A stretch of DNA of 12,491 nucleotides from Planctomycetota bacterium (GCA_021777845.1 JAJYDB010000140.1:1-12491); one strand, 5' to 3'. Positions 1,257 to 10,126 are shown, numbered from the stretch's first letter. Notes: generated by a model from the letters alone, not told the origin. A program made the numbers and translations.

Positions 1257-1282
1257 GACGACGTCGGTCGTCGCGTTATTTT
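1257..1282 (+). terminator. Hairpin (stem gacgac/gtcgtc, loop gtcg) followed by GCGTTATTTT; candidate intrinsic terminator between convergent genes
   Basis: 1257-1262 gacgac pairs with 1267-1272 gtcgtc. The T-rich run ttatttt lies at 1276-1282, directly after the permease stop (TAA 1254-1256). It overlaps the stop codon (1276-1278) of the convergent minus-strand gene. Confidence 0.45.
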
Positions 1283-4200
1283 GACTCCGGCGGCTGCGCT
1301 TTGGATCGGGACGCGGGGGCCGGTCGCGCGGGTTGCGGATCACGCTTCGGGTCCGCGGCGAAGAGCGCCGGATCAAACGGGACATCTTGAAAAATCAGGT
1401 GTCTGCGCGACTTCGCCGCGTTGGATTCGTCGAGGTCGAGGATGAGCTTCGACTTCTCGCGAAAGACGTTTTCGATCACGCTCCAATAGATATCGCGATC
1501 GTTGACCAACGCATACGAGGATCGCGCCGAGGCACGGTCCAAGAAGACGTCCGCCGCGCCCGACGCCCGCGAGCGCGAGGCCGCGGCGCGCCCCCCCGCG
1601 CTTTCGCGGATCTCGACGGCTCGGGCCGACGCGGCTTGCAACTGCGTGGTCTCATACGAATGCGCGTCGATCAGCAGGCGTTTGCGCTCGCTCTCGGCGC
1701 GTGCGACGTCGCGGTAGGCGTCGGAGACGGCGCGGGGCGCCCGGACCTCGAGAAACGAAACCGAGGCGATGTTCACGCCGAGATGAAGCTCGTCGGCCTT
1801 CCGTTGGAGCGCGCGGGCGACGGCGTGCTCGGCGTCGGCGCGGCCGTTTGTGAGCAGATCGTCGAGTTTGAGTCGGCCCACAACCTCGCCCAAGGCCGAC
1901 TCCGCGAGGCGTTCCACAACCTGCCCGGGGTTGTCGACGTTGAACAGATAATCACGGAGCGAGGCGACGTCTGCGCTGCGCACGGTGAATTGCGCGACGG
2001 CGTCGATCTCGATCAGCCTGCCGTCGCCGGTGTGCAAGAGGGCGTTCTCGGATGCCGCTCGGACCGCGGCGGCGAGCGCTGCGTCGGCGGCCCAGGGCGT
2101 GGTCGACGACGGGCGCGCGATCGACTCCGCCGTCCCCGCGCCGATCGTCAGCGAACGCACGACGCCGGGCTTGAAGCGGTCGACGCGTTCCCAAGGCGCG
2201 GGGAGTCGCCAGTGCAATCCCGGAGCCAAAACACCGAGAAAACGGCCCGAGCGCGTCCAAACCCCAACCTCGTCCGGCTCCACTTGGACGAAACCCTCGG
2301 CCAGGTAGAGCAACGCGGCGGCGATCGCGAGCGAGGCAACGACGTACTTCGCGGGAATCCGAATCAGACGCCCCGGCGCGGGACCGCGGACCTGACGATC
2401 GAACCAATCGAGCGCGGCGGCGAGACGTCGCACGCGGGTGCCCGCGGGTCGCGCGCCGCCCCGGCCGACCTTGAGCAGACGCAAGGCGTTCAAGAGGACG
2501 AGCAGCGACCCCAACTGATGCGCGACCGCCGCGGCGACCGGCCCGAGAAATCCGAGCGCGGCCGCGAGCACCGCCACGGTGTTCCAACCAAAGGCGAAGA
2601 TCACGATGTTCTGCTTGATGACGGCGACGGCTTCGCGAGCGATCCGAAACAGGTCGGGCAGGGGGGTGAGCGGCTCGCCGAGCAGGATCACGTCGCCGGC
2701 CTCGGCGGCGAGGTCGGATCCGACGCGGCCCAGGGCGATGCCGACGCCGGCCTCGACGAGCGCGGGGGCGTCGTTGATCCCGTCGCCGATCATCACGACG
2801 CGACGGCCCTCGGCCTGCTTGCGGGCGATCCATCGGGCCTTTTCGGACGGCGAGAGTTCGGCCTCGAACGTCTTGATGTGCGTCCGTTTCGCGACCGGCA
2901 GCGCGGCGGCGGCGCGGTCGCCGGTCAGGATCGCGAAGTCCTTGATGTTCAGGTGCTTGAGCGAGTGGACGACGTCGTGCGCCTCGGGCCGGACTGCGTC
3001 GCGCGCCGTGATCAAGCCGACGACCCGGCGGTCGATCGCGACCAGCAGCGGTGTTTCGCCGCGTTCGTCGGCGGAGCGCAAGGCGTCGGCGACCTCGGGT
3101 TCGATCGCGACGCCCGACTCGACGACGAGCCTCTGGTTGCCGACGAGGACCTCGAACGCGGCTCCCGCGGCGTCGCGACACTGCGAGCTGACGCCGGCGC
3201 CCGGCCGCGCGGTCGCCGAGACGCATCCCTCGGTCGAGATCCGGCGCGCGACCGCGGCGTCGACGACGACCTTCGCGAGCGGGTGCGGGCTCGAAAGCTC
3301 AGCCGCGGCCGCCAGACCGATCATTTGGGATTCGTCGTAGTCCGCGAAGACGACGATCCGGGCGAGCTCGGGCCGGCCGAGCGTGAGGGTGCCGGTTTTG
3401 TCGAACGCCACCAGGTCGCAAGCCGCGAGCCGCTCGAGCGCGACGCCCCCTTTGATCAGGACGCCGCGACGAGCGAGGGTCGCGAAGGCGGCGAGCACCG
3501 CGGCGGGCGTCGCGAGGATCAAGGCGCAGGGACACGCGACGACGAGCACGGCGACGGCTCGCATCCACGGGTTCGACAGGTGAAAGAGATAGCCCGCGAT
3601 CAGCACGGCCGCGGCCGTGATTTCGACCGCGGGCAGGAACAGCCGCGCGTAGCGATCGGCGAGCCGTTCGATCGGCGCTTTGCGGTGTCTGGCCGCGCCG
3701 ACCATCGCGACCACTTGCCCGAGCGTTGTCGCCGCGCCGACGCGTTCGGCCTCGACTTCGAGCGTGCCGAACTGGTTGATCGAACCCGCGACAACCGGCT
3801 CGCCCGGCCCTTTGTCGACCGGCAGCGACTCGCCGGTGAGCGGCGATTGGTCGACCGCGGAGCGGCCCAGCAGCACCTTGCCGTCGACGGGAATACGCTC
3901 GCCCGCTCGGACGAGAACGACGTCGCCGACGACGACCTCGGTGATCGGCAGCTCGCGTTCGGCCCCGTCGCGACGGACGCGTGCCGTGCGCGGCGTCTGG
4001 TCGAGCAGGCTCCGGATGGCTTGCCGGGCCCTCGCGAAGGTGAAGGCCTCGAGCAGCTCGCCGAAGAGCGCGATGAAGACGACCTCGGCCGCGACGAACG
4101 GCATCCGCAGGACCAGCGCCGCCACCGACGCCTGCGCCAGCGCGAAGTCGGCTCCGATTCGACCCGACGCGAGCGCGTCGAGCGCGTCGTAAACGACCTT

Positions 4201-4485
4201 CGCCGCGCCCAGGAGCGCCGCCAGCCAGATCAGCGGAATGCCTCCCGGAGCCCGCGCGGCCTCCCAGCCCAACTGGCCGAACAGCAGGTCCGCGACGATC
4301 ACCAGGCCGAGAAAGCCGGCGAAGATCGCGAGCGCGCGGTCGTCGTGCGGGCCGTGGGAGTGCGGCTTGCCGGCGCCGTCGTCCTTGTGGCCGTGAGCAT
4401 GATCATGCGACGCTCCGTGGTCCGCGCGGGCATGATCATGCGAGTCGTCGAGGTCGAAAGCCGAGGGGTCGTATTCGCGATGCAT
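1276..4485 (-). CDS. P1B-type heavy-metal-translocating ATPase fused in frame to a C-terminal HflK/HflC-like SPFH (band 7) domain (1069 aa)
   Basis: Single uninterrupted ORF. ATPase features: N-terminal His-rich stretch (SHDHARADHGASHDHAHGHKDDGAGKPHSHGPHDD); actuator 'LTGES' (3826-3840); TM6 'ACPCALI'; phosphorylation site 'FDKTGTLT' (DKTGT at 3388-3402); hinge 'GDGINDAP'; TM8 'HQLGSLLVLLNALRLL'. After a ~35-aa linker there is an extra TM helix (IPAKYVVASLAIAAALLYLAEGF) and an SPFH domain (EPDEVGVWTRSGRFLGVLAPGLHWRLPAPWERVDRFKPGVVRSLTIG ... RAVEIRESAGGRAAASRSRASGAADVFLDRASARSSYALVNDRDIYWSVIENVF) typical of HflK/HflC. Start ATG 4485 lies 9 bp downstream of the MBL gene stop. Confidence 0.8.
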   Translation of the reverse strand: MHREYDPSAFDLDDSHDHARADHGASHDHAHGHKDDGAGKPHSHGPHDDRALAIFAGFLGLVIVADLLFGQLGWEAARAPGGIPLIWLAALLGAAKVVYDALDALASGRIGADFALAQASVAALVLRMPFVAAEVVFIALFGELLEAFTFARARQAIRSLLDQTPRTARVRRDGAERELPITEVVVGDVVLVRAGERIPVDGKVLLGRSAVDQSPLTGESLPVDKGPGEPVVAGSINQFGTLEVEAERVGAATTLGQVVAMVGAARHRKAPIERLADRYARLFLPAVEITAAAVLIAGYLFHLSNPWMRAVAVLVVACPCALILATPAAVLAAFATLARRGVLIKGGVALERLAACDLVAFDKTGTLTLGRPELARIVVFADYDESQMIGLAAAAELSSPHPLAKVVVDAAVARRISTEGCVSATARPGAGVSSQCRDAAGAAFEVLVGNQRLVVESGVAIEPEVADALRSADERGETPLLVAIDRRVVGLITARDAVRPEAHDVVHSLKHLNIKDFAILTGDRAAAALPVAKRTHIKTFEAELSPSEKARWIARKQAEGRRVVMIGDGINDAPALVEAGVGIALGRVGSDLAAEAGDVILLGEPLTPLPDLFRIAREAVAVIKQNIVIFAFGWNTVAVLAAALGFLGPVAAAVAHQLGSLLVLLNALRLLKVGRGGARPAGTRVRRLAAALDWFDRQVRGPAPGRLIRIPAKYVVASLAIAAALLYLAEGFVQVEPDEVGVWTRSGRFLGVLAPGLHWRLPAPWERVDRFKPGVVRSLTIGAGTAESIARPSSTTPWAADAALAAAVRAASENALLHTGDGRLIEIDAVAQFTVRSADVASLRDYLFNVDNPGQVVERLAESALGEVVGRLKLDDLLTNGRADAEHAVARALQRKADELHLGVNIASVSFLEVRAPRAVSDAYRDVARAESERKRLLIDAHSYETTQLQAASARAVEIRESAGGRAAASRSRASGAADVFLDRASARSSYALVNDRDIYWSVIENVFREKSKLILDLDESNAAKSRRHLIFQDVPFDPALFAADPKRDPQPARPAPASRSKAQPPESK
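1488..2358 (-). other. Domain: extra TM anchor plus HflK/HflC-like SPFH (band 7) module of the fusion ORF (residues ~710-1000)
   Basis: TM helix at residues ~710-732, then a recognisable SPFH core and HflC-like C-terminal helix region. The remaining C-terminal ~70 aa are low-complexity (P/A/R/K-rich). Confidence 0.65.
2460..4485 (-). other. Domain: P1B-type ATPase module of the fusion ORF (residues ~1-675; 8 predicted TM helices, A/P/N domains)
   Basis: Motif positions as listed for the parent CDS. Boundary estimated from the end of the last ATPase TM helix (...LLVLLNALRLLK). Confidence 0.7.
4397..4443 (-). repeat. Two copies of the 14-bp direct repeat gcatgatcatgcga (4397-4410 and 4430-4443; each contains the perfect 12-bp palindrome GCATGATCATGC), 33 bp apart, encoding a duplicated S-H-D-H-A motif
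   Basis: Direct reading of the sequence. The copies are in frame and correspond to residues 15-19 and 26-30 of the ATPase N-terminus. Confidence 0.6.
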
Positions 4486-4494
4486 GCGGGTTCC

Positions 4495-5169
4495 TTAGCC
4501 GGGGCTCGCCCAGGCTCCTTCGCTCAAAAACGGGTTCGTCCGGCGTTCCGCACCGATCGTCGTGGGGGGTCCGTGACCGGGAAAAACGAGCGCGGCGTCG
4601 GGGAGCGTGAGCAGTTTCGCGCGGATGCCCTTGAGCAGCTGATAGCCGTTGCCCCCCGCAAAGTCGGTCCGACCGACCGAGCCCGCGAACAGGACGTCGC
4701 CGCCGAGCACGAAAGTCGGGTCGAACTGATCGACGACGAAGACGACCGAGCCGGGGCTGTGTCCGGGGATCTCGCGGGTCTCGAAGCGGAAGCCGGCGAC
4801 CTCGAAGCACTCGCCGTCGTCGACCAGCCTGTCGGCGGCGGGGCTGCGGCTCGGGAACAGGAACGACGCGCTCAGGTTGGCTTCGGGATCGACGAGCAGC
4901 GGGGCGTCGTTGCGGCCGACGATGATCGGCGCGTAGGGAAACGCCGCCTTCAGCGCCTCGTTGCCCGCGATATGATCAAAGTGTCCATGCGTGTTCAAAA
5001 TAGCGGCCAAGGTGCGCTTCTCGTCGGCGAGCGTCCGCAAAATCGACCGCGCGTCGAACCCCGGGTCGATCACGACGGCGTCGTCGCGGCCGCGGATCCT
5101 CAGCACGTAGGCAACTTCCCCGAGCGGGGGCGACTCCACGGCGTCGATCAGATAGTCGTTGTCGATCAT
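4495..5169 (-). CDS. MBL-fold metallo-hydrolase (hydroxyacylglutathione hydrolase/GloB-like)
   Basis: 'NTHGHFDHIAGN' is the HxHxDH zinc-binding motif, and '...FPGHGPPTTIGAERRTNPFL' is a GloB-type C-terminus. Start chosen at ATG 5169 (MIDNDYLIDAV...). The 41 codons further upstream in ORF 4495..5292 are low-complexity and likely not translated. Stop TAA at 4495-4497. Confidence 0.75.
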   Translation of the reverse strand: MIDNDYLIDAVESPPLGEVAYVLRIRGRDDAVVIDPGFDARSILRTLADEKRTLAAILNTHGHFDHIAGNEALKAAFPYAPIIVGRNDAPLLVDPEANLSASFLFPSRSPAADRLVDDGECFEVAGFRFETREIPGHSPGSVVFVVDQFDPTFVLGGDVLFAGSVGRTDFAGGNGYQLLKGIRAKLLTLPDAALVFPGHGPPTTIGAERRTNPFLSEGAWASPG

Positions 5170-5218
5170 GCGTTCGCGATCCTCACGAGGAATTCCAAAG
5201 GGGTCGGGACCGTCGGCG

Positions 5219-5245
5219 TTTGTCTCCGTTTGCAAGAACGACAAA
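5219..5245. promoter_or_regulatory. Nested imperfect palindrome TTTGTC-tccgt-TTGCAA-gaac-GACAAA; candidate operator in the divergent MBL/ATPase - DUF1571 intergenic region
   Basis: Outer arms tttgtc (5219-5224) and gacaaa (5240-5245) are exact reverse complements. The centre ttgcaa (5230-5235) is itself palindromic and shares the same axis. It lies ~50-75 bp upstream of the MBL start codon. Confidence 0.25.
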
Positions 5246-5563
5246 GCCCGCGACCCCAGCCCGCCGCAACTCGGCCCGCACAACCGGCCCATCAGGAATT
5301 ATGCGCGCGCCGGCCCGAGGATTCGAGCGGTTTCCGCGCTCGGCGCGTAATTTGCGTGCTAGATTCCTAAAGCGAGCGGGTCACCCCTTGACGAGAGGCG
5401 GTCCGGCGGGAAGGCACCGAAGTTCGAGCTCTGGGTCTTGAATCGGCGCGACCGATCGGAACGTCCGCACCTCAAACGCACAGCGTTCACACTTTTCGAT
5501 CGGTTTATGCCCTCGGGCGATGCCCTCAACCATCCGGCCGCGACGCCGGAGCGAGGTCGAGCC

Positions 5564-6505
5564 ATGCCGCAATACATCGGAAGTCGCCGTCGCGTCTGTT
5601 CATCACGCCGATCCGTGGCGGGTGTTCGCTTGGTGCTGGGGTGTTGCCTCGGGATGTTCGCGGGCGACGCGGGCATGAGTTCCCGCCCGCTCCGCGCCGC
5701 GGACGAAGCCGCGGCCCCGGCCGCCGCCGCCGACAAGCCCGCGGCCGAATCGCCCCGACGCGTCGCGAGCAATGTCGGCTCGACGGCCAAGCCGCCGCTC
5801 GAAACCGGCGTCACCCCCGTCGATCAGGCCCGCCGCGAAATCGACGCCTGCCTGAAGCGCTACGCCTCGGTCGACGACTACACATGCACATTCTTAAAGC
5901 GCGAGCGCATCAACGGACGACTCTCGTCGCAAGCGATGATTGACATGAAGATGCGCGTGGAACCGAAGAGTATTTACTTCAAATTCGCGCGTCCGAACGC
6001 GGGTCGCGAGGCGATTTTCGTACCCGGCCGGTACGACGACAAGATCGTGGCGCACGACGTCGGTCTGGGCAAGTTGTTCGCGGGGACGATGTATCTCGAC
6101 CCGTTCGGGACGCGGGCGATGGAGAGCAATCGGCATCCGATCACCGAGGCGGGGATCGGCGCGATGCTCGATAAGCTGGCGAAGCACTGGGCGTACGAGC
6201 TGACGCCGCAGGAGTCGGTGGTCACGTTTCACCCGCTCGCGAGCATTGGGCCGCGCGCCTGCTTGATGATCGAGACCGAGCATCCGCACCGCGACCCGAA
6301 GTTTTTGTTCCACAAAGTGAAGCTCTACATCGACCGCGAACACGGCCTGCCGATCCACATCGAGGCGTACGACTGGCCGCGGCGGCCGGGGCTCGCGCCC
6401 GAGTTGGTCGAGGAGTATTCGTACGTCGACCTCAAGCTCAACGTCGGTTTGACCGACCTCGATTTCGACCCGTCGAACAAGAGCTATTCGTTCGGACGGT
6501 TCTGA
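5564..6505 (+). CDS. Secreted protein, probable DUF1571 family (function unknown)
   Basis: Start chosen at ATG 5564 (MPQYIGSRRR...), preceded by GAGG at 5552-5555. Basic n-region plus hydrophobic h-region (VAGVRLVLGCCLGMFAG) indicates a signal peptide; 'VLGC' is a possible lipobox. An Ala/Pro-rich linker precedes a ~250-aa globular domain that resembles the DUF1571 proteins common in Planctomycetota. The 42 upstream codons of ORF 5438..6505 are not needed. Stop TGA at 6503-6505. Confidence 0.6.
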   Translation: MPQYIGSRRRVCSSRRSVAGVRLVLGCCLGMFAGDAGMSSRPLRAADEAAAPAAAADKPAAESPRRVASNVGSTAKPPLETGVTPVDQARREIDACLKRYASVDDYTCTFLKRERINGRLSSQAMIDMKMRVEPKSIYFKFARPNAGREAIFVPGRYDDKIVAHDVGLGKLFAGTMYLDPFGTRAMESNRHPITEAGIGAMLDKLAKHWAYELTPQESVVTFHPLASIGPRACLMIETEHPHRDPKFLFHKVKLYIDREHGLPIHIEAYDWPRRPGLAPELVEEYSYVDLKLNVGLTDLDFDPSNKSYSFGRF

Positions 6506-7457: not shown

Positions 7458-8777
7458 TCAGTCGCGCGTCGCGGCGCGTTCGCGACGTCGCCCGCGTGTA
7501 CTATCGGGAAAGAGCCGTTCCTGATTCAGCGCGCCGTCCGCGAGAAACGGGATCGGCTCGCTTTCGGCCGCGAGTTCGACGTCGGGCCGCGTGCGCAGCT
7601 CGTCGACGAGCGAGCTCGAAACCCAAACCGTTTCGAGCTCGAGCGTGTTCGGGATGATCGCGAGCCGCGCGTCGTCGCGACGCAAACGCCAACAGGTGTC
7701 GAGGCACGCCGCGAAGACGTCGACGTCGGTCGCCAGCGCGATCGGCACGCGGGCCCTCGTGAGAAAGTTGCTCGTGAAGCTGTTCACCCGCATCGGGACG
7801 GGGTCGACCGCGCGTGCGACGCGCTCGGTCGTGAGATCCGCGAGCCCCACCCCAAGCGCGTTCCCGCGGGTTTCGACGCTCAGGTCGAGCACCGCCAGTC
7901 GGGTCACGACCGGTCGCGGCAGGTCGGGCATCGTCTCGACGCGCTGCCTGCCGATCACGTTCGGGTCGAGGCCCGTCCCGCTGTAATTCTTGCCCAGCTC
8001 GCCGACGACCAGCACGTCAAGCTGATCGAACGGAAGCTGCGGCATCAAGCCGCGCGCCTCGTCAAGCAAAAGCGGCTCGCGCTCGAGGATATGCTCGGGC
8101 GCGACGGCTTCCACGCGCGCCAGCCGTTCGCGGGCGTTCTCAAGCAGAGCCAAGCCGAGCACCACCTTCGTCCGCGCGAGCAAAAACGCGCCGACCTCGG
8201 GCAAGAGCCGCCGCAGACCCGGCAGCCCCAGCTTGTGAACCTGCGCCGCGCCTTCGCGCTTGCCGAGGCCGATCGCGAGCATTTTCAACAGCCCGCTTTC
8301 ATAGCGACCCGTAAACGAAGTGTGCGGCTTAATGCGATTCATGAGCACGATGCCGTCGGCTTCATACGCGTTGCGGTCAAAATGGATCGGCAACCCGAAG
8401 GCGTTCGCGCCCAAAACGACGGTGTCGACTTCAGAGCGCACCGGGCAGCCCATCGACGCCTCGTTGACGCCGAACTCGGCGAGCAAGCCGCGCTGGCCCT
8501 CGGCCGTGCCGCCGCCGTGACTCCCCATCGCCGCGACGATAAACGGTCGAAAGCCCATCGACCGGAGCGTGTCCACCGCCGCGCGCGCCAGGACGTCGAT
8601 CGCGCGTATGCCGCGGCTCCCGACCGTCACCGCAACCGTGCCGCCGACCGGAACGCGGTCGCGAATGTCGCTCGCGAGGATCGCGTCGCGCACCGCCGCG
8701 GCGGCGTCGGCCGCTTCGGGTTGGTCGTGAAAACGCCTGCGCAGCCGCGTGATCGCCGGAAAATCAAAGGTGTGCAT
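7458..8777 (-). CDS. LarA-like (lactate racemase N-terminal domain / DUF2088) family protein
   Basis: 439 aa. The N-terminus 'MHTFDFPAITRLRRRF' is LarA-like. 'FIVAAMGSHGGG' parallels the LarA 'ILVATGFHRP' segment, and 'HTSFTGRYESGLLK' parallels LarA 'HFFAGFSGGRK'. The opposite-strand ORF 7425..9113 is Arg-rich antisense and rejected. Confidence 0.55.
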   Translation of the reverse strand: MHTFDFPAITRLRRRFHDQPEAADAAAAVRDAILASDIRDRVPVGGTVAVTVGSRGIRAIDVLARAAVDTLRSMGFRPFIVAAMGSHGGGTAEGQRGLLAEFGVNEASMGCPVRSEVDTVVLGANAFGLPIHFDRNAYEADGIVLMNRIKPHTSFTGRYESGLLKMLAIGLGKREGAAQVHKLGLPGLRRLLPEVGAFLLARTKVVLGLALLENARERLARVEAVAPEHILEREPLLLDEARGLMPQLPFDQLDVLVVGELGKNYSGTGLDPNVIGRQRVETMPDLPRPVVTRLAVLDLSVETRGNALGVGLADLTTERVARAVDPVPMRVNSFTSNFLTRARVPIALATDVDVFAACLDTCWRLRRDDARLAIIPNTLELETVWVSSSLVDELRTRPDVELAAESEPIPFLADGALNQERLFPDSTRGRRRERAATRD

Positions 8778-8973: not shown

Positions 8974-9768
8974 TCACGCCGCCGAGGTCCGACGACGGAC
9001 GCGACGGATCACGAAGAGCGCCCCGACAACGCCCGTCCAAGCCAGCACCGAGGCGGGCTCAGGCGCGGCGATCGGCGAGATCGTCCCGCCCTGAGCCGAG
9101 TAGACCGGCGTGAACGGCACCGAGGTCGGCACCGTGCTCGCGATGTTCACGAATTGTTCGGTAAACGGCTGCTTCGCGATGATCACGAAGGTCGCGCTGT
9201 CGGAGCCCGCTCCCAGCGACGGCGACGACGACGCGGGGTCGTAGAACTGCGCGCGAATGCCGCCGATCGTCGTGCCGGGGTTCCACGTCAACGACGCGGG
9301 CACGACCGCCGTGCCGCCCGCCGGAGTCGTGATCCCGCCGACCTGACCGTCGGTGACGACATACGCATAGGCCGGCGTCGATCCGCCCAAGAACGTCGTC
9401 CCCGAGGGCGTGGCGTTGAATTGGAAGCCGAGGCCGTCGACGTGCACCGGCTCGCCGACCGTCGTCTTCACGTTGCTCACGTCGACCTGATACGCGTAAG
9501 CATAGTAGCCGGCCGCGGCGCCGGAGCCTTGAAACACCTGCGACTGGATCACGCCCGAAGTCGGCGCGTCCTGAAAGGTAAACGGCGACGACATCACCGG
9601 CGCATTCGAAACAGGCTGGAAGAGGCTGTTGAACGTCGCCGCGGACATGTTCGGCGTGGCCAGCGACTGAGAAATGGGGATCGCATCGGCTTGAACCCGC
9701 GACGTCGTCGCGATTCCGCACAGGACGACCCCAAACAGCACTCGTGCGATGGGCTTATTCATTCTCAT
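8974..9768 (-). CDS. PEP-CTERM sorting-domain protein (putative exosortase substrate), secreted, Gly/Thr/Ser/Ala-rich
   Basis: Start chosen at ATG 9768 (MRMNKPIARVLFGVVLCGIATTSRVQA|DAIP; alternative ATG at 9762), which gives an N-terminal Sec signal peptide. The C-terminus '...APEPASVLAWTGVVGALFVIRRVRRRTSAA' is a PEP motif, a TM helix and an Arg cluster, i.e. a canonical PEP-CTERM. The 72 upstream codons of ORF 8974..9984 are rejected because the signal peptide must be N-terminal. Confidence 0.7.
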   Translation of the reverse strand: MRMNKPIARVLFGVVLCGIATTSRVQADAIPISQSLATPNMSAATFNSLFQPVSNAPVMSSPFTFQDAPTSGVIQSQVFQGSGAAAGYYAYAYQVDVSNVKTTVGEPVHVDGLGFQFNATPSGTTFLGGSTPAYAYVVTDGQVGGITTPAGGTAVVPASLTWNPGTTIGGIRAQFYDPASSSPSLGAGSDSATFVIIAKQPFTEQFVNIASTVPTSVPFTPVYSAQGGTISPIAAPEPASVLAWTGVVGALFVIRRVRRRTSAA

Positions 9769-9880
9769 TGATCTTCCAAGGTTGATCGGGAATGGTCCGA
9801 ATCGTCGATCAGACCGAAGTCCTGAGCGAGTCAATCCTTTGCTCGCCGGCCGGAGTCCAACTCCGGGAAAGACCGGCACG

Positions 9881-9910
9881 CGACGCCGCGTCGGCACTCT
9901 TTTCGCCTTT
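9881..9910 (+). terminator. Small GC hairpin (cgacg-ccg-cgtcg) followed by CACTCTTTTCGCCTTT; plus-strand-oriented terminator-like element where no plus-strand gene is annotated
   Basis: 9881-9885 pairs with 9889-9893. T-rich tract at 9897-9910. It is preceded by a perfect 7-bp-stem hairpin, ccggagt-cca-actccgg, at 9850-9866. Confidence 0.25.
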
Positions 9911-10126
9911 GCGGCGCCGCAAATCCGCAGCCTCAAGCCTGCGACGCTCCCCAAACGCGCGACGACCAGTCGCGGCCGACTCAAACTCCCAAGGAGCCCG
10001 AGCCGACGGGACGATCCCGACCGGCGCCGAGACGTTGGCGGACGTCTCTTGCAGCGCGGTCGCAGGCCAAAAGCACCTCGCCGCCCGCACTTCGAAAAGA
10101 CACGGCCTACGAGGCGGCGGGAAAAT

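What the first reader, a model, noticed from the sequence alone, without database searches (positions are those of the whole stretch)
1276..4485. Heavy-metal P1B-ATPase fused in frame to an HflK/HflC-like SPFH (band-7) domain
A single 1069-aa ORF joins a complete P1B-type pump (TGES, CPC, DKTGT, GDGINDAP, 8 TM) to an extra TM helix and a full SPFH domain with an HflC-like C-terminal region. A ninth TM after an 8-TM pump would place the SPFH domain on the periplasmic side, which is the native HflK/C topology, so the architecture is geometrically coherent and not random read-through. SPFH proteins form large membrane rings or cages that corral partner proteins such as FtsH. A covalently tethered SPFH module suggests the metal pump sits inside, or nucleates, its own SPFH microdomain. 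I do not recognise this as a described architecture.
Basis: partly seen in the sequence, partly recalled or inferred. Interest (0 to 1): 0.75.

Follow-up and report, generated by a model that had tools for sequence, protein, structure and literature searches.

The report
Metal pump fused to HflK cage subunit
One gene really does join a heavy-metal P-type ATPase to a periplasmic HflK-type SPFH "cage" subunit, and it belongs to a large, apparently undescribed group in which metal transporters of three unrelated families are fused to the first subunit of a three-gene HflK/HflC-like operon.

Summary
ORF 1276-4485 (minus strand, 1069 aa) encodes a complete P1B ATPase with 8 TM helices, a basic cytoplasmic linker, a ninth TM helix and an HflK-like SPFH domain with its coiled coil.

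It is not an assembly artefact. The ORF is intact in four further assemblies of the same lineage. More than 200 homologues in Planctomycetota, Acidobacteriota and Fervidibacter carry the same fusion.

New findings:
- In 76 of 80 related loci the fusion gene is followed by a dedicated hflC, and usually by a second hflK-like gene.
- The same three-gene layout occurs with a CDF transporter or an ArsP-type permease in place of the ATPase.
- The ATPase- and CDF-fused subunits share an extra periplasmic W...H...E loop that unfused HflK lacks.
- The pump's metal-site signature (CPC / N / HQxxS) fits no classical P1B subgroup as I recall their motifs.

The window's copy is atypical. No partner SPFH gene lies within 10 kb, and two loop residues are lost. 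Its SPFH part is still under purifying selection.

The most likely mechanism is that the pump is tethered into an HflK/C-type ring. That step is inferred, not shown. The closest published analogue is the Zur-regulated hmtA-hflKC-like cluster of P. aeruginosa. I found no paper describing the fusion.

The parts
1276..4485 (-). Whole fusion gene: 1069 aa plus stop codon. P1B ATPase, linker, TM9 and HflK-like SPFH domain.
4342..4485 (-). aa 1-48: N-terminal cytoplasmic tail. It opens with the family-conserved MHREY motif and carries a His-rich stretch. There is no HMA/CxxC domain.
   Evidence: Translation. Homologues share the MHREYHP start and a His-rich run. pLDDT is below 50.
4000..4341 (-). 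aa 49-162: TM helices MA, MB, M1 and M2.
   Evidence: Hydropathy peaks at 51-69, 81-101, 114-132 and 123-153. AF2 helices 47-72, 85-106, 112-125 and 129-162.
3676..3999 (-). aa 163-270: actuator domain with TGES (217-220).
   Evidence: Pfam E1-E2_ATPase. TGE is invariant in 207 fused sequences.
3469..3675 (-). aa 271-339: TM helices M3 and M4. CPC is at aa 318-320 (nt 3526-3534), within the motif CPCALILATP.
   Evidence: CPC is conserved in 206 of 207 sequences.
2662..3468 (-). aa 340-608: phosphorylation and nucleotide-binding domains, with DKTGT (362-366) and GDGINDAP (567-574).
   Evidence: Pfam Hydrolase. D362 and GDGxND are invariant or nearly so.
2470..2661 (-). aa 609-672: TM helices M5 and M6 with the family metal-site signature N635 and H656-Q657-x-x-S660.
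   Evidence: Conservation: N635 207/207, H656 207/207, Q657 204/207, S660 203/207.
2353..2469 (-). aa 673-711: basic cytoplasmic linker. It holds an amphipathic helix at 680-699 followed by a disordered stretch at 699-710.
   Evidence: 11 K/R against 2 D/E. pLDDT is about 42-58.
2287..2352 (-). aa 712-733: ninth TM helix. It corresponds to the signal-anchor helix of HflK.
   Evidence: It aligns with the E. coli HflK TM and the start of its SPFH domain.
1735..2286 (-). aa 734-917: periplasmic SPFH1/SPFH2 domains. They include the family-specific inserted loop at about 792-815. The window has W798 but A802 and N814, where the family has H and E.
   Evidence: Pfam Band_7, fold match to HflK, loop analysis.
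1462..1734 (-). aa 918-1008: long coiled-coil helices (CC1 and CC2). In HflK/C these build the cage wall and cap.
   Evidence: AF2 helices 918-988 and 992-1008. TIGR01933 match reaches aa 1022. Foldseek aligns about 303 columns to HflK.
1279..1461 (-). aa 1009-1069: C-terminal tail. It has the conserved RRHL(I/V) motif followed by a Pro-rich disordered end.
   Evidence: Alignment. pLDDT is below 50.
4495..5292 (-). Metallo-beta-lactamase-fold hydrolase gene directly upstream on the same strand, 9 nt from the pump's ATG. An AAGGA Shine-Dalgarno sequence overlaps its stop codon, so the two genes are probably co-transcribed. The pairing is specific to this lineage.
   Evidence: Pfam Lactamase_B E 3e-29, sequence. 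Same order in L088-L091. Absent from the other 80 loci.

Best explanation
The gene encodes one polypeptide with three parts.

1. A catalytically intact P1B-type pump for transition metals, probably divalent ions. It has 8 TM helices and a cytoplasmic His-rich tail.
2. A basic cytoplasmic linker of about 40 residues, followed by a ninth TM helix.
3. A periplasmic HflK-type SPFH domain with the long coiled coils that let HflK/HflC build a 24-subunit ring or cage. That stoichiometry is established knowledge of E. coli HflK/C, not a result obtained here.

These steps are shown by the sequence and tool results.

The protein belongs to a large family whose standard layout is a three-gene operon: transporter::HflK-A, then HflC, then HflK-B. 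The transporter can be a P1B ATPase, a CDF or an ArsP-type permease.

The following is inferred. HflK-A, HflC and HflK-B co-assemble into an HflK/C-like ring. The ring then carries covalently tethered metal transporters at its membrane rim. The transporter-free HflK-B paralogue would dilute the number of pumps per ring. The W...H...E loop occurs only in the ATPase- and CDF-fused subunits. It would sit on the periplasmic face near the transporter's exit, where it could contact the transporter or bind the released metal.

Transport direction is most likely export. This follows from the canonical P1B mechanism and from the CDF analogue. The metal is most likely Zn2+ or a similar ion.

The window's lineage has a stripped-down version: the pump::HflK-A gene stands alone behind an MBL-fold hydrolase gene, and its loop is divergent. 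It would therefore have to self-assemble, or use partners encoded elsewhere in the genome.
For: Domains and motifs.

Active pump: DKTGT, TGE and GDGxND are invariant in 207 fused sequences.

Topology.

HflK identity: E. coli HflK is the only PDB sequence match and the best fold match (E 4e-19, about 303 of 319 columns). It is followed by prohibitin, stomatin, erlin, QmcA and flotillin cage subunits.

The fusion is conserved:
- 120 of 120 top hits carry it.
- About 27 full-length clusters at 50% identity appear among the top 150 representatives.
- 75 of 80 genome loci have the fusion in one ORF.

Partner genes:
- Gene 2 matches TIGR01932 HflC at 175-184 bits, above the cutoff of 134. Gene 3 is HflK-like at 136-148 bits.
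- The genes overlap by 4 nt in Tundrisphaera.
- HflC is present in 76 of 80 loci, and all three genes in 63 of 80.

Parallel fusions with the same three-gene layout:
- CDF::SPFH.
- ArsP_1::SPFH.
- The two unfused hflK loci I examined form plain hflK-hflC pairs with no third SPFH gene.

Signature loop: W798 202/207, H802 189/207, E814 196/207. It is shared by ATPase- and CDF-fused subunits and absent from HflK-B, pair-type HflK and canonical HflK.

The SPFH part of this lineage is under purifying selection: dN/dS 0.13 (11 synonymous, 4 non-synonymous changes) against 0.33 for the ATPase part.

Literature analogue: P. aeruginosa PA2439-PA2434 holds three HflK/C-family genes plus the P1B ATPase HmtA. 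The cluster is induced by Zn depletion and its promoter binds Zur (PMC4542158, PMC8531726, PMC11761036).
Against: No experiment or multimer model shows that these proteins form a ring, or where the pump sits relative to it.

The window locus and its close relatives have no HflC or HflK-B gene within 10 kb on either side. Two loci from other taxa, L051 (Gemmata) and L064 (Fervidibacter), also lack them.

The window protein lacks two of the three conserved loop residues (A802, N814). Its SPFH part is somewhat more diverged than expected for its ATPase identity: ratio 0.63 against 0.76 +/- 0.10.

The TIGR01933 score is below the HflK equivalog cutoff.

Metal specificity and transport direction are not determined. 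HmtA, the only studied pump with a comparable gene context, is reported to be an importer.

I could not test sequence homology between this family and HmtA or PA2437-2439.

The dN/dS estimate rests on only 15 substitutions.
Confidence: 0.6

Rival explanations
1. FtsH coupling. The fused HflK-A, HflC and HflK-B are the organism's FtsH modulators. The purpose of the fusion is then to place the metal transporter beside FtsH, inside or at the HflK/C cage. Pump abundance would be set by regulated proteolysis, or the pump would be shielded from it. This could coexist with the best explanation.
For: Gene 2 passes the curated HflC equivalog cutoff. E. coli HflK from FtsH-HflK/C complexes is the best sequence and fold match. 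Source annotations call these proteins FtsH modulators. From general knowledge, not tested here: FtsH degrades the P-type ATPase MgtA in enterobacteria, under the control of small proteins.
Against: No ftsH gene is seen next to any locus I inspected. No FtsH-contact residues were examined. I do not know whether these genomes also carry a separate canonical hflKC pair.
Confidence: 0.25
2. In this particular lineage the SPFH module is a relic. The partner genes are lost and the loop residues mutated. The pump works alone and the C-terminal third has no ring-forming role.
For: No partner SPFH genes lie within 10 kb on either side in the window or in L088-L091. The window has A802 and N814, and EVRAP in place of the conserved DVHPP motif. 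The SPFH part is relatively more diverged.
Against: The ORF is intact across all 1069 codons in five assemblies. dN/dS of the SPFH part is 0.13-0.18, no higher than for the ATPase part. The domain is predicted to fold with confidence: pLDDT is about 80-95 over most of the SPFH domains and 72-83 over the coiled coil. Partner genes could lie elsewhere in the genome.
Confidence: 0.15
3. The fusion is an assembly or sequencing artefact: a lost stop codon or frameshift between two adjacent genes.
For: None, beyond the general possibility in metagenome assemblies. Some long-read MAG loci do show the opposite error, with the fusion gene split by frameshifts (L008, L009, L013, L030, L031, L073, L075, L082).
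Against: The same in-frame junction occurs in more than 200 homologues from several phyla, including complete genomes. It also occurs in four other independent assemblies of this lineage. The linker and TM9 are themselves conserved.
Confidence: 0.01
4. The pump is an importer of the HmtA type. It would be switched on under zinc limitation. The SPFH ring would serve metal acquisition, for example by holding metal or a periplasmic donor near the pump entrance, rather than efflux.
For: The P. aeruginosa hmtA cluster with three HflK/C-family genes is Zur-controlled and induced by Zn depletion. HmtA overexpression raises cellular Zn and Cu (papers read). The periplasmic W...H...E loop could be a metal ligand site.
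Against: The same SPFH subunit is fused to CDF transporters. All characterised CDFs export from the cytoplasm; this is general knowledge. The His-rich tail is cytoplasmic, as in exporters. The cited reviews themselves question the import activity of HmtA. Homology to HmtA was not tested here.
Confidence: 0.15

Closest known systems
E. coli HflK/HflC-FtsH complex (PDB 7vhp, 7wi3, 9cz1/2, 9paw)
   Same: The C-terminal third has the same build: one N-terminal TM helix, periplasmic SPFH1/2 domains and long coiled coils. HflK is the best sequence and fold match. In relatives a true hflC gene follows directly.
   Different: HflK's short cytoplasmic N-terminal tail is replaced by an entire 8-TM ATPase. 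The operon has three SPFH genes (HflK-A, HflC, HflK-B) instead of two. HflK-A carries an extra W...H...E loop. Any link to FtsH is untested. The window lacks an adjacent hflC.
P. aeruginosa hmtA cluster PA2434-PA2439 (P1B ATPase HmtA plus three HflK/HflC-family genes, Zur regulon)
   Same: A P1B ATPase gene and three SPFH genes sit in one co-regulated cluster (PMC4542158 Table 2; PMC8531726). This is the only published case I found that links the two protein types.
   Different: The genes are separate and in a different order, with the SPFH genes first. HmtA is reported as a Zn/Cu importer. Nobody has studied the link mechanistically. I could not obtain the sequences, so homology to this family is untested.
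Classical P1B ATPase subgroups: CopA (P1B-1), ZntA (P1B-2), sCoaT/CzcP (P1B-4)
   Same: All catalytic motifs are present, as are CPx in M4 and 8 TM helices as in P1B-1 and P1B-2. PDB matches are roughly equidistant: sCoaT 328 bits, CopA 317-320 bits, ZntA 303 bits.
   Different: The metal-site signature is CPC (M4) / N (M5) / HQxxS (M6). It matches none of the subgroup signatures as I recall them from Arguello 2003 and Smith 2014: YN + MxxSS, K + DxG, SPC + HEGxT. There is no HMA domain. The C-terminus continues into TM9 and SPFH.
SPFH cages that enclose membrane clients (stomatin-aquaporin 1, PDB 9zd2; QmcA-YbbJ, 8z5g; prohibitin; erlin; flotillin)
   Same: The fold is the same. The concept is also the same: an SPFH ring corrals or contacts a channel or transporter.
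   Different: In those systems the client is bound non-covalently. Here it is part of the same polypeptide as a ring subunit.
PacL-organised 'effluxosomes' of M. tuberculosis (PacL1-CtpC and others)
   Same: Small single-TM scaffold proteins encoded next to P1B ATPases gather the pumps into membrane platforms needed for metal resistance (PMC9374683, PMC13043812).
   Different: As described in the abstract of PMC9374683, PacL1 has a TM domain, a cytoplasmic Gln/Ala-repeat region and a metal-binding motif, with no SPFH domain. PacL proteins are also not fused to the pump. The resemblance is functional only.

Membership tests
P1B-type (heavy-metal) P-type ATPase | Phosphorylation motif DKTGT, actuator TGES and hinge GDGxNDxP | tested here: met
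   aa 362-366, 217-220 and 567-574. These are invariant in 207 family members.
P1B-type (heavy-metal) P-type ATPase | CPx/xPC motif in the fourth core TM helix, and 6-8 TM helices | tested here: met
   CPC at aa 318-320. Eight TM helices by hydropathy and AF2.
P1B-type (heavy-metal) P-type ATPase | Curated family model above its cutoff | tested here: met
   TIGR01525 scores 545 bits against a cutoff of 346.
P1B-2 (ZntA-type Zn/Cd/Pb exporters) | Conserved Lys in M5 and DxG in M6 (signature recalled from the literature). The ZntA equivalog models are also checked here. | tested here: not met
   M5 has an invariant N635 and no Lys. M6 is HQxxS. NF033775 and PRK11033 score far below their cutoffs.
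P1B-1 (CopA-type Cu+ exporters) | YN in M5, MxxSS in M6 and N-terminal HMA domains (recalled signature) | tested here: not met
   None of these is present. TIGR01511 scores 391 bits, below its cutoff of 397.
P1B-4 (CoaT/CzcP-type) | SPC in M4, HEGxT in M6 and only 6 TM helices (recalled signature) | tested here: not met
   The protein has CPC, HQxxS and 8 TM helices. sCoaT is nevertheless the top PDB hit, by a small margin.
HflK (FtsH modulator, SPFH family) | Band_7/SPFH domain | tested here: met
   PF01145, E 5e-20, 72.7 bits against a cutoff of 23.6.
HflK (FtsH modulator, SPFH family) | Curated HflK equivalog model above its cutoff | tested here: not met
   TIGR01933 scores 117-121 bits against a cutoff of 159. 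It is still the best SPFH model and covers positions 3-253 of 261.
HflK (FtsH modulator, SPFH family) | Single TM anchor with a periplasmic SPFH domain, followed by long coiled coils, with an HflK-like fold | tested here: met
   Foldseek top hits are HflK chains at E 4e-19.
HflK (FtsH modulator, SPFH family) | Adjacent, co-transcribed hflC partner gene | tested here: not met
   The window and L088-L091 have no Band_7 gene within 10 kb on either side. The feature is met in 76 of 80 loci of relatives.
HflK (FtsH modulator, SPFH family) | Physical and functional association with FtsH | not testable with these tools
   No ftsH gene appears in any inspected neighbourhood. Pull-down or cryo-EM is needed.
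HmtA-type cluster (P. aeruginosa PA2434-PA2439) | P1B ATPase genetically linked to three HflK/C-family genes | tested here: inconclusive
   The family at large has the pump plus three SPFH modules in one operon. The window has only the fused module.
HmtA-type cluster (P. aeruginosa PA2434-PA2439) | Sequence orthology of the ATPase to HmtA and of the SPFH parts to PA2437-2439, and Zur control | not tested
   I could not reach a PAO1 sequence. Plasmid searches found only canonical hflKC and CopA-like pumps. No Zur-box analysis was done.
SPFH-NfeD operons (stomatin/QmcA type) | Adjacent NfeD-family partner gene | tested here: not met
   No NfeD Pfam family appears among the neighbours of any inspected locus.

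The most novel reading that the evidence does not exclude
The three SPFH paralogues build a closed HflK/C-type vault on the periplasmic face. Exporters of three different transporter families, tethered to its rim, discharge into its lumen. The vault would then be a dedicated periplasmic metal-handling nanocompartment, used for sequestration, buffering or metallation of clients. The conserved W...H...E loops of the transporter-bearing subunits would act as metal ligands or gates at the pump exits. On this reading SPFH cages would be reaction or diffusion chambers for transported solutes, not only protease regulators or lipid-raft scaffolds.
Probability: 0.12. Interest if true: 0.9.

Novelty: new variant of a known kind. 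Interest (0 to 1): 0.7.

Why it matters
SPFH proteins (HflK/C, prohibitin, stomatin, flotillin, erlin) form large rings or cages in all domains of life. What these cages do to the membrane proteins they surround is still debated.

This family offers a natural experiment. The client is covalently attached to a cage subunit. The same solution has arisen with three unrelated metal or metalloid transporter families. It comes each time with a dedicated HflC and a transporter-free HflK paralogue.

That makes the client, the stoichiometry question and the relevant physiology (metal homeostasis) explicit and testable. Cultured Isosphaeraceae such as Singulisphaera and Tundrisphaera carry the operon, and heterologous expression is another route.

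The family also points to a possible unrecognised P1B subgroup with a CPC / N / HQxxS metal site. In addition it gives a rationale for the unexplained co-regulation of hmtA with three hflK/C-like genes in the P. aeruginosa zinc regulon.

Tried and rejected
1. Assembly artefact. Rejected: the fusion is conserved in more than 200 homologues and in four other assemblies of this lineage.

2. Plus-strand ORF 1333..5370 as a gene. Rejected as a compositional shadow ORF.

3. A downstream HflC partner in the window. None exists: the downstream genes are convergent ABC-2 permease genes.

4. Obtaining P. aeruginosa HmtA and PA2437-2439 sequences to test homology. This failed.
- tblastn against the plasmid collection with the SPFH part, the ATPase part and the M5-M6 consensus gave only canonical hfq-hflX-hflK-hflC loci, CopA-type pumps or nothing.
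- The Lewinson 2009 and Smith 2014 papers are not held.
- Look-ups of unfused representatives gave only fragments or canonical HflK.

5. The proteobacterial example. The 'Nevskia soli' locus L017 looks like a misbinned acidobacterial contig: its HflC is 77-82% identical to those of acidobacterial loci (Terriglobia, Bryobacterales).

A 6-sequence alignment worked.

7. A neighbour-joining tree of the SPFH domains. Only the HflC against HflK-type split was resolved (100/100). Whether the ATPase-, CDF- and ArsP-fused subunits share one origin stays open.

8. Conserved neighbours beyond the three genes. None is general. None of the window's neighbour genes recurs in the other loci.

9. Literature searches for SPFH, band 7 or HflK combined with P-type ATPase or CDF fusions. 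No description was found.

Full report
**1. Observation**

The window has a 1069-codon ORF at 1276..4485 on the minus strand. Pfam finds three domains:
- E1-E2_ATPase, aa 163-340, E 3e-54.
- Hydrolase, aa 357-580, E 5e-27.
- Band_7/SPFH, aa 734-937, E 5e-20.

NCBIfam places aa 117-670 in TIGR01525, the heavy-metal P-type ATPases, at 545 bits against a cutoff of 346. Aa 734-1022 match TIGR01933 (HflK) at 117 bits, below the equivalog cutoff of 159.

Topology was checked in two ways.
- Hydropathy gives eight TM segments in the ATPase part and a ninth at about 712-733.
- The 45-residue stretch 671-715, which spans the linker and the start of TM9, has 11 K/R against 2 D/E. By the positive-inside rule it is cytoplasmic, so the SPFH domain is periplasmic.
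- A full-length AlphaFold2 model (mean pLDDT 81.8) shows the same helices. Its linker has low confidence: a helix at 680-699 and a disordered stretch at 699-710.

The 1345-aa ORF on the opposite strand is R/D/G-rich. I regard it as a shadow ORF of a 70% GC gene.

**2. Not an artefact**

- All 120 best full-length database hits are proteins of 925-1084 aa, 46-54% identical to the query (the query's own entry at 100%). All carry the same three Pfam domains. Named sources are Isosphaeraceae, Tundrisphaera lichenicola and Singulisphaera sp. PoT.
- An exhaustive search with the C-terminal 370 aa found about 27 distinct full-length fusion clusters at 50% identity among the top 150 representatives, plus many fragments.
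- A genome scan with the SPFH part gave 528 confirmed loci. The best 80 come from Isosphaeraceae, Pirellulales, Gemmata/Gemmatales, many Acidobacteriota (Bryobacterales, Solibacteraceae, Terriglobia, Vicinamibacterales) and Fervidibacter.
- In 75 of those 80 loci the ATPase and SPFH parts lie in one ORF. The rest are cut by contig ends or frameshifted in long-read MAGs. One is a different fusion.
- The window's own lineage (Planctomycetota MAGs) is represented by four further contigs with the identical gene order and an intact 1069-codon ORF.
- Window against L088 is 98.1% identical in nucleotides. dN/dS is 0.33 for the ATPase part and 0.13 for the SPFH part. The counts are small (11 synonymous and 4 non-synonymous changes), but the direction is clear.

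**3. What the parts are**

*The pump.* In 207 aligned fused sequences the catalytic motifs are invariant. The transmembrane metal site has a fixed signature:
- M4: CPC(A/G)L(I/V)LATP, 206/207.
- M5: N635, 207/207.
- M6: H656 207/207, Q657 204/207, S660 203/207.

As I recall the signatures from Arguello 2003 and Smith et al. 2014, this fits none of P1B-1 (YN, MxxSS), P1B-2 (K, DxG) or P1B-4 (SPC, HEGxT). Those papers were not available to me. PDB matches are nearly equidistant: sCoaT 328 bits, CopA 317-320 bits, ZntA 303 bits.

The N-terminus is a His-rich cytoplasmic tail with no HMA domain. The family-conserved start MHREY confirms the start codon.

*The SPFH part.* Its only PDB sequence match is E. 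coli HflK. A model of aa 712-1030 (pLDDT 79.9) shows a TM helix, SPFH1/2 domains, a 73-residue coiled-coil helix and a second helix. Its best Foldseek hits are HflK chains from FtsH-HflK/C complexes (E 4e-19, about 303 aligned columns). Other cage-forming SPFH proteins follow, including stomatin bound to aquaporin 1.

**4. Context in relatives: a three-gene module**

In the complete genomes of Tundrisphaera and Singulisphaera two more Band_7 genes follow the fusion gene. In Tundrisphaera they overlap by 4 nt.
- Gene 2 passes the curated HflC model (175-184 bits against a cutoff of 134).
- Gene 3 is HflK-like (136-148 bits).

Across the 80 loci, HflC follows in 76 and all three genes are present in 63. 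Most shortfalls are contig ends. Only L051 (Gemmata sp. IIL30) and L064 (Fervidibacter) have sequence downstream but no partner genes.

The window resembles those two exceptions. Downstream lie convergent ABC-2 permease genes. Upstream, 9 nt away, lies an MBL-fold hydrolase gene. The 126-kb contig of a 98%-identical relative shows no Band_7 gene within 10 kb on either side.

**5. The same module with other transporters**

*CDF fusions.* A class of SPFH relatives 570-610 aa long turned out to be Cation_efflux (CDF) transmembrane domains fused to the same kind of HflK-like domain.
- The top 120 hits of a search with one of them all carry PF01545 and PF01145. Named sources are Eisenbacteria, Chloroflexi, Actinobacteria and Deltaproteobacteria MAGs.
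- In the four inspected CDF loci (L058, L086, L087, L096) two more SPFH genes follow, of about 290 and 310-330 aa where sized. In L058 they match HflC and HflK-B by BLAST.
- In L096 the deposited 333-aa gene call is a truncation of a 581-aa CDF::SPFH ORF.

*ArsP fusions.* A third class fuses an ArsP_1-family permease (PF03773) to the SPFH domain, again followed by two Band_7 genes.

*Unfused HflK.* The two unfused HflK genes I examined from the same profile search sit in ordinary two-gene hflK-hflC pairs.

In this limited sample, therefore, the third SPFH gene appears together with a transporter fusion.

**6. A loop specific to the cation-transporter fusions**

ATPase- and CDF-fused subunits share an insertion in SPFH1 with the consensus W-(E/N)-x-x-H ... 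E. Conservation is W798 202/207, H802 189/207 and E814 196/207. The insertion is absent from HflK-B, from pair-type and canonical HflK, and from the ArsP fusions.

The window keeps W798 but has A802 and N814. Its SPFH part is also somewhat more diverged than expected for its ATPase identity: ratio 0.63 against 0.76 +/- 0.10 in other pairs. The window's protein is thus an atypical, partner-less member, yet one still under purifying selection.

**7. Mechanism**

*Shown.* The protein is an intact P1B pump joined through a cytoplasmic linker and a ninth TM helix to a periplasmic HflK-type subunit. The family has a conserved operon with HflC and a second HflK paralogue. The same SPFH module has been fused to three unrelated transporter families.

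*Inferred.*
- The three SPFH proteins assemble like HflK/C, in which 12 + 12 alternating subunits form a ring. That stoichiometry is established structural knowledge, not tested here.
- The transporter would then be tethered at the membrane rim of the ring.
- HflK-B would fill HflK positions without a transporter. Twelve 70-kDa pump heads on a ring of about 20 nm would be crowded; this is my own geometric estimate.
- The W...H...E loop would face the periplasmic side near the transporter exit.

Export of a divalent metal such as Zn2+ is the more likely activity, given the canonical P1B mechanism and the CDF analogue.

Rival or complementary readings are coupling to FtsH proteolysis, a relic SPFH domain in this lineage, and an HmtA-like import role.

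**8. Comparison with what is known**

The only published link between the two protein types that I found is in P. aeruginosa.
- PA2439 (HflK family), PA2438 (HflC), PA2437 (HflC family), PA2436, PA2435 (the P1B ATPase HmtA) and PA2434 form one cluster.
- The cluster is induced 5.6- to 14-fold by zinc depletion (PMC4542158, Table 2).
- The proteins rise under Zn depletion (PMC11761036).
- Zur binds the PA2439 promoter (PMC8531726).

Those papers note the neighbouring genes but do not study the connection. I could not retrieve the sequences, so homology with the present family remains untested.

PacL-organised effluxosomes of M. tuberculosis are a functional analogue: a scaffold plus P1B pumps, without an SPFH domain.

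Literature searches for SPFH, HflK or band 7 together with P-type ATPase or CDF fusions found nothing. Databases hold the proteins under generic names such as 'cation-translocating P-type ATPase family protein', 'Cu+-exporting ATPase' and 'FtsH protease activity modulator HflK'.

**9. Verdict**

The architecture is not unique to this window. It is the ATPase version of a widespread, apparently undescribed arrangement of transporter::HflK, HflC and HflK.

I rate it a new variant of known kinds (P1B pumps and HflK/C cages), with interest 0.7. Ring assembly, FtsH involvement, metal specificity and transport direction remain to be shown.

Noticed in passing
L058:2643-4349; L086:6001-9642; L087:6001-9569; L096:5257-8880: CDF (Cation_efflux) transmembrane domains are fused to the same HflK-like SPFH domain and followed by HflC-like and HflK-like genes. 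This is a large family: the top 120 hits all carry PF01545 and PF01145. Named sources are Eisenbacteria, Zixibacteria, Chloroflexi, Actinobacteria and Deltaproteobacteria MAGs.
   Followed up: yes
L092:1054-5273; L093:5199-8941; L094:3810-7823: An ArsP_1-family permease (PF03773) is fused to an HflK-like SPFH domain, again followed by two Band_7 genes. L093 also has a ZIP transporter gene and a further Band_7 gene nearby. These fusions lack the W...H...E loop.
   Followed up: partly
L096:5257-7002: The deposited gene call of 333 aa (Zixibacteria SM23_81) is a truncation. The ORF extends to a GTG start, giving a 581-aa CDF::SPFH protein.
   Followed up: yes
window 4495-5292 (-): A metallo-beta-lactamase-fold hydrolase gene lies 9 nt upstream of the pump gene, with an AAGGA Shine-Dalgarno sequence overlapping its stop codon. 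The pairing is conserved in this lineage (L088-L091) but absent from all other loci. Enzymes of this fold are usually zinc-dependent (general knowledge), so the pairing with a putative Zn-type pump may not be accidental.
   Followed up: partly
window 1333-5370 (+): A 1345-aa ORF lies antisense to the pump gene and the MBL gene. It is R/D/G-rich and looks like a shadow ORF typical of high-GC DNA.
   Followed up: partly
window 5438-6505 (+), 8974-9984 (-): A DUF1571 protein (Pfam, E 2e-72) and a protein ending in a PEP-CTERM-like anchor (my reading of the sequence) flank the region. They fit the Planctomycetota label that NCBI gives two members of the window protein's 90%-identity cluster.
   Followed up: partly
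L017 ('Nevskia soli' RefSeq MAG); L015 ('uncultured Clostridia' MAG): These contigs carry the acidobacterial type of operon. L017's HflC is 77-82% identical to those of acidobacterial loci (Terriglobia, Bryobacterales), so the contig is probably misbinned. L015 was not checked.
   Followed up: partly
L015:788-3889 and L015:72-617, with equivalents in 19 and 27 loci: In many loci, apparently mostly acidobacterial, the fusion gene is preceded on the same strand by a conserved protein of about 1000 aa with weak Reg_prop and DUF3604 matches. A conserved ORF of about 190 aa with no Pfam match lies further upstream.
   Followed up: partly
L008, L009, L013, L030, L031, L073, L075, L082: In these MAG loci, mostly long-read ('MFD') assemblies, the fusion gene is broken into 2-4 ORFs by apparent frameshifts. 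This looks like a sequencing error that would make the fusion appear as separate genes.
   Followed up: no
L002:11102-11425: In Singulisphaera sp. PoT a 107-aa ORF with no NCBIfam match and no Pfam hit on record sits between the fusion gene and hflC. It is not present in Tundrisphaera.
   Followed up: no
window 7458-8777 (-); L088:17567-18769: A weak Lar_N (lactate racemase N-terminal) homologue lies in the window. A Ni_insertion (LarC-like) gene lies about 4.4 kb beyond the pump gene in the longer contig. Nickel-cofactor genes therefore sit in the same neighbourhood as the pump.
   Followed up: no
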